Below, one piece after another: positions 14,838-15,444 of a stretch of 64,000 bases of DNA. The notes below the pieces were generated by a model that saw nothing but the letters and a program-made list of their open reading frames with translations, did not search any database and was not told the origin of the DNA. A program made the position numbers and the translations under genes. The DNA is from Escherichia coli (GTDB taxonomy: Bacteria > Pseudomonadota > Gammaproteobacteria > Enterobacterales > Enterobacteriaceae). Every line of letters begins with the position of its first letter. Positions within the stretch are counted from its first letter, which is position 1. The stretch lies in NCBI RefSeq assembly GCF_013122565.1, contig NZ_CP053258.1. One strand, given 5' to 3'.

Positions 14838-14844
14838 TACAAGG

Positions 14845-15444
14845 ATGTCAAAATTGCGCACGCCGTCCCGCTATCTTTTCCGCTTGTCATCGCATGAAAT
14901 TACTCCTTTTCGGGCAACGCTCTTTTTAATCTTGTTGATATGTGCCGCTCTGGCTGGCGTAAGTTGGCTGATTATTTCCTTTATGCGTACGGGCAATACT
15001 TTCATCTTCTGGTTAACACTTTTTATTGGGTATCTGATAGCTGCGGCGAAGCAGGAAAAAATCAAGCTCCTCAAGAAGCACCGAATCATGGCAGATAAAC
15101 GTCAGGGACGCTCCATTTGCCAGTTTGCTCGCGAATTTAACACCCACTCCGTAGATACATGGGTGATTCGGGCGGTGTGGGATACCTTGCAAGGAAACGG
15201 CTATATCGATTACCCACTGCCACTTAAAGCCGATGATAAACTGGACGATGATCTGGATTTGGTGAGCGACGCAGTCGAGTTAGAAGAGCTGGTTGAAGAT
15301 ACCGCCGCTCGTTGCGGGCGCGATCTATGCGGAATAGAAGAGAATCCGTTTCTTCCCATCGTCACGGTAGGCTCTCTTGTAAGAGTGTTAAACGCGCAAC
15401 CGATGACTCAGGAGCGACGTAACCAGTTGTTTATTCCGTCATAA
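14845..15444 (+). CDS. Hypothetical membrane protein, two predicted TM helices plus acidic C-terminal domain (199 aa)
   Basis: Uninterrupted ORF; hydrophobic segments ATLFLILLICAALAGVSWLIISF and FIFWLTLFIGYLIAAA; acidic stretch DDKLDDDLDLVSDAVELEELVED; start ATG sits only 8 nt after the hemY terminator with a poorly spaced AAGG, so start and expression are uncertain. Confidence 0.5.
   Translation: MSKLRTPSRYLFRLSSHEITPFRATLFLILLICAALAGVSWLIISFMRTGNTFIFWLTLFIGYLIAAAKQEKIKLLKKHRIMADKRQGRSICQFAREFNTHSVDTWVIRAVWDTLQGNGYIDYPLPLKADDKLDDDLDLVSDAVELEELVEDTAARCGRDLCGIEENPFLPIVTVGSLVRVLNAQPMTQERRNQLFIPS

What the first reader, a model, noticed from the sequence alone, without database searches (positions are those of the whole stretch)
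14838..15444. Unannotated-looking 199-aa membrane protein ORF squeezed between the hemY terminator and the glmZ terminator
A complete 600-bp ORF lies between two convergent terminators: the hemY terminator ends at 14837 and the ORF stop codon (15442-15444) runs straight into the A/T tract of the glmZ terminator. I do not recall a gene at this position in K-12. The product has two N-terminal hydrophobic helices followed by a soluble domain with a strongly acidic stretch (DDKLDDDLDLVSDAVELEELVED) and a CGRDLCG cysteine pair. The ATG is only 8 nt past the hemY terminator with a poorly spaced AAGG, so expression would need terminator read-through or an internal start (next Met is residue 47). Small single-gene membrane proteins with acidic cytoplasmic tails inserted at convergent terminators are a typical shape for accessory effectors, but this could equally be a decaying remnant.
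Basis: partly seen in the sequence, partly recalled or inferred. Interest (0 to 1): 0.55.

Follow-up and report, generated by a model that had tools for sequence, protein, structure and literature searches.

The report
Membrane-anchored carrier-protein look-alike gene
The ORF is a real accessory E. coli gene, absent from K-12, that encodes a small inner-membrane protein whose cytoplasmic part looks like an acyl carrier protein but lacks the carrier serine; it belongs to a widespread unnamed family that often travels as integron gene cassettes, and its function is unknown.

The parts
13608..14804 (+). hemY, last gene of hemCDXY. Upstream co-directional neighbour and the likely source of transcription.
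   Evidence: 398-aa ORF; residues 19-398 are 100% identical to K-12 HemY; annotated as hemY in related genomes.
14808..14839 (+). Hairpin ATATCGCCTC-GTTCA-GAGGCGATAT followed by T7: an intrinsic-terminator-like element between hemY and the ORF.
   Evidence: Terminator scan. A hairpin occupies the same position in the K. aerogenes-like and L006 loci, but without the T-run.
14840..14844 (+). AAGGA Shine-Dalgarno-like motif, 9-10 nt before TTG 14854.
   Evidence: Sequence. GGAG sits at a comparable distance in L004 and L006.
14854..15444 (+). Most likely CDS: 196 aa with a TTG start. An in-frame ATG at 14845 would give 199 aa.
   Evidence: Homologues start MR.PSR. PGAP aa in GF60 and Eco-15. Both forms are in NCBI. 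dN/dS is 0.12-0.30.
14854..14883 (+). Conserved N-terminal cytoplasmic motif M-R-x-P-S-R-x-(M/L)-(P/F), predicted to dock as a strand on the C-terminal domain.
   Evidence: S8 and R9 are conserved in at least 80% of 60 members. pLDDT for residues 1-10 rises from 44 to 89 with the deep alignment, with a beta-bridge at residue 4.
14914..15048 (+). Transmembrane hairpin: TM1 about residues 24-46 and TM2 about residues 52-68 (199-aa numbering), joined by the short loop RTGN.
   Evidence: Hydropathy. AF2 helices H21-49 and H52-85. Charges are +4 at the N-terminus, +1 in the loop and +7 after TM2, which implies N-in/C-in.
15106..15408 (+). Cytoplasmic ACP-like four-helix domain, about residues 88-188, net charge -11. 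Conserved motifs are SICxFARxF, VDTWVIRAV(W/Y), P-x-(K/R)-A-x-D-x-L, R-x-G-R, E-x-N-P, TV-x-(D/S)-LV and NAQP.
15265..15267 (+). Ser141 codon (199-aa numbering), which aligns with the phosphopantetheine-bearing Ser36 of E. coli AcpP. The position is not conserved in the family.
   Evidence: hhalign. Column composition is P16, D13, G10, S7, E3, A2 and others, of 60. It is R or N in the closest E. coli alleles.
15443..15649 (-). glmZ sRNA gene, convergent with the ORF. Its terminator U-tail overlaps the ORF stop codon.
   Evidence: Rfam RF00083, 218.2 bits, E 2e-57, full length. Terminator at 15477-15448.

Best explanation
The ORF is a functional accessory gene.

Shown:
- It encodes a 196-aa inner-membrane protein. 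A short conserved N-terminal peptide and a C-terminal acidic four-helix domain, both cytoplasmic, are joined by a transmembrane hairpin.
- The C-terminal domain has the acyl-carrier-protein fold, but the family lacks the conserved serine that carries phosphopantetheine.
- The family is large, unnamed, spread over many bacterial phyla, has no conserved partner gene, and in a substantial minority of environmental loci is a bona fide integron gene cassette.
- In Escherichia the gene is not in a cassette. It sits with no promoter-like site between the hemY hairpin and glmZ.

Inferred:
- The protein is not a carrier. It acts alone as a membrane-tethered binding module: an ACP look-alike that binds or sequesters a protein normally recognising ACP-like surfaces, or an incoming foreign factor.
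- This gives a self-contained, host-independent benefit of the kind integron cassettes usually carry.
- The Escherichia copy is probably expressed at low level by read-through from hemCDXY.
- It has been inherited vertically with frequent loss, K-12 included.
For: Real gene:
- dN/dS is 0.12-0.30 in all nine pairwise comparisons with a defined dS, against 0.005-0.056 for hemY.
- It is intact in 693 of 5426 complete E. coli genomes and on more than 1000 contigs.
- The profile finds 904 clusters at 50% identity with E <= 1e-3 and 682 with E <= 1e-10.

Architecture:
- AF2 with 60 sequences gives pLDDT 93.4 and pTM 0.83, with the N-terminal strand docked.
- Charge distribution implies N-in/C-in.

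ACP fold:
- Four of 10 members give sub-threshold NCBIfam ACP hits in the right register.
- Some AFDB members are auto-named 'Acyl carrier protein'.

Not a carrier:
- The Ser-equivalent column holds Ser in 7 of 60 members.
- No neighbouring synthase, ligase or transferase is seen.

Stand-alone and mobile:
- No recurrent neighbour among 94 loci.
- Nineteen of 87 evaluable loci have an upstream GTTRRRY-type core whose exact reverse complement overlaps the stop codon; shuffles predict 0.79. These represent at least 12 independent cassettes.
- attC hairpins are shown, and a chain of at least 10 cassettes in L005.

Escherichia context:
- The same hemY-gene-glmZ order occurs in other taxa.
- dS is similar to that of hemY.
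- No promoter-like site lies upstream.
Against: - No experiment or database annotation links any family member to a function.
- The binding-module or mimic mechanism rests on fold plus absence of the serine, and on the general logic of single-gene cassettes.
- A strong-looking terminator (10-bp stem, T7) directly upstream, with no detectable promoter, leaves expression in E. coli unproven.
- The nearly invariant Cys92, Arg96, Trp106, Arg109, Asp131, Arg156 and Arg159 could mark a catalytic or ligand site rather than a protein interface.
- About three quarters of the loci show no attC, so cassette mobility is not universal.
- The metagenome sample was the best 80 hits of a single peptide pattern and may be biased.
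Confidence: 0.5

Rival explanations
1. It is a single-gene anti-phage or anti-toxin defence or immunity protein: a membrane sentinel or effector, carried by integrons like the recently described phage-resistance cassettes.
For: - The family is a recurrent integron cassette.
- In a screen of mobile-integron cassettes of unknown function, at least a third conferred phage resistance, and about a third of those had transmembrane helices (bioRxiv 10.1101/2024.07.02.601719).
- It is a solitary small membrane protein with patchy strain distribution and a fast evolutionary rate.
- Some arrays also hold SMI1_KNR4, ankyrin, HigB/HTH and PIN-like genes.
Against: - No PADLOC hit for the window protein or for 10 diverse members, and no PHROGs hit.
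- The family was not found in viral contigs or phage genomes, and gave only one weak plasmid hit.
- In enterics it sits behind housekeeping genes (hemY, rlmC), not in defence islands.
- No evidence of toxicity or of a sensor domain.
Confidence: 0.2
2. The window copy is a non-functional or silent relic: an ancestral gene no longer expressed and on its way to loss.
For: - It is absent from 87% of complete E. coli genomes.
- It is frameshifted in E. whittamii, and truncated 86-136-aa variants exist.
- A terminator-like hairpin with T7 lies immediately upstream, and no promoter-like site was found.
- The canonical ATG has mutated to TTG in this allele.
- dN/dS is about 10 times that of hemY.
Against: - dN/dS stays well below 1, even within E. 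coli (0.27-0.30).
- The ORF is full length with all family-invariant residues present.
- TTG with a well-spaced AAGGA is a usable start.
Confidence: 0.12
3. It is a genuine membrane-anchored holo-carrier protein that shuttles an acyl or aminoacyl group at the inner membrane.
For: - It has the ACP fold and an acidic helix-II region.
- In this allele Ser141 aligns with AcpP Ser36.
Against: - That column is Ser in only 7 of 60 members and is R or N in the closest E. coli alleles.
- No Pfam PP-binding hit appears even at E <= 10.
- No loading or partner enzyme is encoded nearby in any of 94 loci.
Confidence: 0.04
4. It is a functional partner of HemY or HemX in late haem biosynthesis, as the fifth gene of the hem operon.
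For: It lies immediately downstream of and co-directional with hemY in Escherichia, a K. aerogenes-like contig and a further enteric contig.
Against: - In Phytobacter, Kosakonia, Superficieibacter and Kluyvera the orthologue follows rlmC instead.
- Elsewhere it is an integron cassette or a solitary gene.
- Most E. coli, K-12 included, make haem without it.
Confidence: 0.03

Closest known systems
Acyl/peptidyl carrier proteins (ACP-like superfamily; Pfam PP-binding PF00550)
   Different: The phosphopantetheine serine is not conserved (7 of 60). There is no significant PP-binding HMM match. The domain is fused to a transmembrane hairpin and a docked N-terminal strand. It carries its own conserved motifs (SICxFAR, DTWVIRAV, RxGR, NP, NAQP). 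No partner enzymes are encoded nearby.
[quoted passage not shown]
   Same: Many family members are single promoterless ORFs bounded by matching R'/R'' attC core sites, inside arrays of small same-strand genes. They are small membrane proteins, like about a third of BRiCs.
   Different: The window copy and all enterobacterial copies have no attC and sit behind housekeeping genes. No defence activity has been shown or predicted.
DUF1493 (PF07377), an enterobacterial domain of unknown function. From memory, not checked here, it belongs to Pfam's ACP-like clan.
   Same: Three of 60 family members give weak DUF1493 hits (E <= 0.1).
   Different: None reaches significance. DUF1493 proteins are, to my recollection, soluble and about 115 aa. 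Nothing useful is known about their function.
CptA/YgfX (PF07254), membrane-bound toxin of the CptAB pair
   Same: An N-terminal transmembrane hairpin followed by a cytoplasmic C-terminal domain. Four of 60 members give weak hits (E 0.003-0.1).
   Different: The hits are not significant, and I suspect they come from the hydrophobic hairpin (the matched regions were not reported). No CptB/SdhE-like neighbour is present. The C-terminal domain is ACP-like.

Membership tests
Acyl carrier protein / PP-binding carrier domains | Four-helix ACP fold | tested here: met
Acyl carrier protein / PP-binding carrier domains | Conserved serine at the N-terminus of helix II (D-S-L motif) that carries 4'-phosphopantetheine | tested here: not met
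   hhalign places AcpP Ser36 on window Ser141. The column is P16, D13, G10, S7, E3, A2 and others, of 60, and is R, N, C or G in close relatives.
Acyl carrier protein / PP-binding carrier domains | Significant match to carrier-protein sequence profiles | tested here: not met
   No PF00550 hit at E <= 10 for the window protein, and PF00550 is not among the families listed for the 60 members. NCBIfam ACP models score 14-17 bits against cut-offs of 65-66. hhalign probability against AcpP is 3.6%.
Acyl carrier protein / PP-binding carrier domains | Genomic association with loading or partner enzymes (synthases, ligases, PPTases) | tested here: not met
   No recurrent neighbour family in 94 loci at E 1e-8, or among close co-directional neighbours at E 1e-3.
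Integron gene cassette | ORF bounded by an upstream R' core (GTTRRRY) and its own attC, whose R'' is the reverse complement of that core | tested here: not met
   For the window copy and all enterobacterial loci, no such pair is present. For the wider family it is met in 19 of 87 evaluable loci, against 0.79 expected, with attC hairpins shown.
Integron gene cassette | Location in an array of cassettes next to an integron integrase | tested here: inconclusive
   An array of at least 10 chained cassettes is seen in L005 and several in L103. No integrase gene was seen within the DNA held. This was not searched systematically.
Known anti-phage defence systems (PADLOC-DB v2) | Match to a defence-protein model | tested here: not met
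   Zero hits at E <= 1 for the window protein and for 10 diverse members.
DUF1493 (PF07377) | Significant match to the Pfam model | tested here: inconclusive
   Three of 60 members hit at E <= 0.1, none at E <= 0.001.
CptA/YgfX toxin (PF07254) | Significant match to the Pfam model and an adjacent CptB/SdhE antitoxin gene | tested here: not met
   Four of 60 members hit at E <= 0.1, none at E <= 0.001. No conserved neighbour.
hemCDXY operon component | Conserved linkage to hem genes wherever the gene occurs | tested here: not met
   Linked to hemY in Escherichia, L004 and L006. Linked to rlmC in six other enteric species of at least three genera, and unlinked elsewhere.

The most novel reading that the evidence does not exclude
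Serine-less, membrane-tethered ACP mimics form a new class of single-gene integron cassette. They would protect the cell by decoying or sensing a factor that targets the ACP surface, such as a phage protein, a polymorphic toxin or an ACP-dependent enzyme. The Escherichia hemY-glmZ gene would be a domesticated chromosomal copy of such a cassette.
Probability: 0.15. Interest if true: 0.7.

Novelty: new variant of a known kind. Interest (0 to 1): 0.4.

Why it matters
This assigns a fold, a topology, a family of about 900 clusters and a mobility mechanism (integron cassettes) to a protein that is 'hypothetical' in thousands of E. coli genomes, including the B2/ST131 lineage. It also shows that the ACP fold has been reused without its prosthetic-group site as a membrane-anchored module.

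If the domain works as an ACP mimic, it would be a new way for mobile genes to act on lipid or ACP-client pathways or on invaders. If it is only a low-expressed relic in E. coli, the practical value is limited to better annotation: a new domain family, the correct start codon, and a hemY-glmZ presence/absence marker.

Tried and rejected
- Pfam, NCBIfam, PADLOC and PHROGs scans of the window protein gave nothing significant.
- PDB sequence searches with two profiles gave nothing.
- A viral-contig scan, phage tblastn and plasmid tblastn found no copies, apart from one weak hit on a Pseudoalteromonas 801-kb replicon that is not in an integron.
- The search for a conserved partner gene found none. 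The two apparent recurrent clusters look like antisense ORFs overlapping the family gene itself: the two representatives do overlap it.
- My first two attC detectors were unusable. A strict RYYYAAC/GTTRRRY pattern with an MFE filter found nothing, and the relaxed version missed most true sites and hit coding DNA. I replaced them with the exact R'/R'' reverse-complement test with shuffle controls.
- The glmZ terminator (…AACGCCTGCTC…GAGCAGGCGTTAAAA) superficially resembles an attC end. I rejected this because it is part of GlmZ, is only 30 nt, is present in genomes without the ORF, and has no RYYYAAC partner.
- I rejected a haem-related function because of the alternative rlmC linkage.
- Literature searches for DUF1493, the sequence motif, and hemY/glmZ/aslA found no description of this gene.

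Full report
**1. Observation**

The window holds an ORF at 14845-15444 on the plus strand (199 aa from ATG). It lies downstream of hemY (13608-14804) and of a hairpin at 14808-14832 followed by seven T. The GlmZ sRNA gene is at 15443-15649 on the minus strand (Rfam RF00083, 218 bits, full length), so the TAA stop overlaps the GlmZ U-tail by 2 nt.

In K-12 MG1655 the hemY stop is followed by 45 bp with a different hairpin and then the same glmZ terminator, with no gene. The literature likewise describes glmZ as lying alone in the aslA-hemY intergenic region (PMC3045617).

The gene is not unannotated elsewhere. The exact protein is in NCBI as 'hypothetical protein' in both a 196-aa and a 199-aa form. 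PGAP annotates a 196-aa hypothetical protein at this position in other strains.

**2. Start codon and expression signals**

All homologues begin MR(T/V/M)PSR(Y/F). In other alleles this Met is ATG or GTG. In the window the equivalent codon is TTG at 14854, with AAGGA 9-10 nt upstream, which is normal spacing. The ATG at 14845 is an in-frame alternative.

No sigma-70-like site was found upstream on the plus strand, so transcription probably depends on read-through of the hemY hairpin. A hairpin is present at the same place in two other genera but without the T-run. On the plus strand the glmZ terminator has no T-run either. Any transcript of the ORF would therefore tend to run antisense into glmZ; this is read from the sequence and was not tested.

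**3. Real gene or relic**

- Distribution: a near-full-length match occurs in 693 of 5426 complete E. coli genomes (13%), in two allele groups at 95-99% and about 88% DNA identity. The second group includes O25b:H4 strains.
- Selection: Nei-Gojobori dN/dS is 0.27-0.30 between E. coli alleles and 0.12-0.23 between genera, against 0.005-0.056 for hemY in the same genomes. The gene is under purifying selection but evolves about ten times faster than its neighbour.
- Inheritance: synonymous divergence matches hemY across genera (1.82 against 1.77 for window versus L006). The hemY-gene-glmZ order recurs in a Klebsiella aerogenes-like contig and another enteric contig. This favours long residence with repeated loss over recent insertion.
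- Decay elsewhere: there is a frameshifting internal deletion in E. whittamii, and 118-aa forms in E. albertii.
- Second locus: in Phytobacter, Kosakonia, Superficieibacter and Kluyvera the orthologue lies 19-36 bp after rlmC, downstream of potGHI. Linkage to haem genes is therefore not general.
- Composition: GC is slightly low, 48.4% against 54.6% for hemY.

**4. Family**

Word-indexed search found only 49 relatives, mostly Escherichia. A profile search of 1.84 billion representatives found 904 clusters with E <= 1e-3 and 682 with E <= 1e-10. Most are 165-200 aa. Named members come from Burkholderiales, Chromatiales, Methylococcales, Neisseriales, Nitrospinales, Planctomycetota, Verrucomicrobiota and Acidobacteriota. 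All named members are 'hypothetical'. No Pfam, NCBIfam, PADLOC or PHROGs model matches significantly.

Conserved features:
- An N-terminal M-R-x-P-S-R motif.
- Two hydrophobic helices.
- The motifs G-x-S-I-C-x-F-A-R-x-F, V-D-T-W-V-I-R-A-V-(Y/W), P-x-(R/K)-A-x-D-x-L, an acidic run, R-x-G-R, E-x-N-P, T-V-x-D-L-V and N-A-Q-P.

**5. Structure**

AlphaFold2 with 14 sequences gave pLDDT 80.5. With 60 sequences it gave pLDDT 93.4 and pTM 0.83, and the N-terminal ten residues rose from 44 to 89 and formed a beta-bridge. This indicates that the conserved N-terminal peptide docks on the C-terminal domain. Charges are +4 at the N-terminus, +1 in the loop and +7 after TM2, which implies both ends are cytoplasmic; the domain itself has net charge -11.

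That column is Ser in only 7 of 60 members (P16, D13, G10) and is R or N in the nearest E. coli alleles. The domain is therefore ACP-like in fold but not a carrier as a family.

**6. Context and mobility**

Clustering all ORFs from 94 family loci found no recurrent neighbour. The only apparent ones look like antisense ORFs over the gene itself: the two representatives overlap it. Upstream neighbours are mostly co-directional (57 against 14), small and unrelated to each other.

- L005: the gene sits in an array of small same-strand ORFs separated by 64-nt and 85-nt repeats of the form TAACAA…GCGTTAG. The R' core of each site is the reverse complement of the R'' core of the next. This is the signature of integron cassettes.
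- L103, a 258-kb genomic contig: the gene is bounded by GTTAGGC and GCCTAAC, followed by a 129-nt hairpin.
- Generalised test: I asked whether an upstream GTT-7-mer has its exact reverse complement overlapping the stop codon. It is positive in 19 of 87 evaluable loci, against 0.79 expected from shuffles. After removing near-duplicates this is at least 12 independent cassettes, most with clear attC hairpins.
- The window and all enterobacterial loci are negative.
- The family was not found in viral contigs or phage genomes and is essentially absent from plasmids.

**7. Interpretation**

Shown:
- It is a genuine, selectively maintained accessory gene.
- It encodes an N-in/C-in membrane hairpin with a serine-less ACP-fold cytoplasmic domain.
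- It belongs to a large unnamed family that is frequently an integron cassette and has no obligate partner.

Inferred:
- The protein works alone as a membrane-tethered binding module, an ACP look-alike, rather than as a carrier or as part of haem synthesis.
- The Escherichia copy is a long-resident chromosomal copy expressed by read-through.

The defence reading is plausible on priors. At least a third of tested mobile-integron cassettes of unknown function gave phage resistance, and about a third of those have transmembrane helices (bioRxiv 10.1101/2024.07.02.601719). There is no direct support for it here. The nearly invariant Cys, Arg, Trp and Asp residues leave room for a ligand-binding or catalytic role.

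**8. Verdict**

The gene is known as sequence but uncharacterised. The ACP-like, non-carrier, membrane-anchored architecture and the integron-cassette association do not appear in Pfam, NCBIfam, PADLOC or PHROGs, or in the papers searched. I rate it a new variant of a known kind, with moderate interest (0.4).

Noticed in passing
window 13515-13565: There is a perfect hexanucleotide repeat (ACCTGC x 8.5) inside hemX that encodes a (Pro-Ala)n tract. HemX length differs between strains: 393 aa in K-12, 399 in GF60, 405 in the window and 407 in Eco-15. I did not check that the differences map to this repeat; if they do, it is a slippage-prone, length-variable tract.
   Followed up: partly
L001 2457-2501 (K-12) versus window 14805-15441: K-12 does not have a clean deletion of the ORF. 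Its 45-bp hemY-glmZ spacer carries a different hairpin (CCCGGAGG…CCTCCGGG) with no evident similarity to the ORF-bearing allele. The two states therefore look like alternative segments between conserved flanks.
   Followed up: partly
window 15442-15480: The glmZ terminator has its T-run only on the minus strand. Plus-strand transcripts leaving the ORF, or hemY in strains without it, would probably not terminate there and would run antisense across glmZ.
   Followed up: no
L005 1-8102: This metagenomic contig is an integron cassette array of at least 12 small ORFs with two attC sequence classes (about 85 nt and about 64 nt). Almost none of the cassette proteins has a Pfam match.
   Followed up: partly
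L021 5001-6065 (protein P0054): One family member is a 354-aa protein made of two complete tandem copies of the whole module (transmembrane hairpin plus ACP-like domain). It sits next to NTP_transf_6, SMI1_KNR4 and HigB/HTH genes.
   Followed up: no
L016 4996-5270 (Escherichia whittamii): The orthologue has an internal deletion joining codon 42 or so to codon 151 or so out of frame. This is a clear pseudogene at the same hemY-glmZ position.
   Followed up: yes
AFDB50 hits: Many family members are only 107-138 aa long, too short to hold both the transmembrane hairpin and the domain. The ACP-like domain may therefore also exist as a free soluble protein. E. albertii and Escherichia sp. E2586 carry 118-aa forms that match only the C-terminal part of the query.
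   Followed up: no
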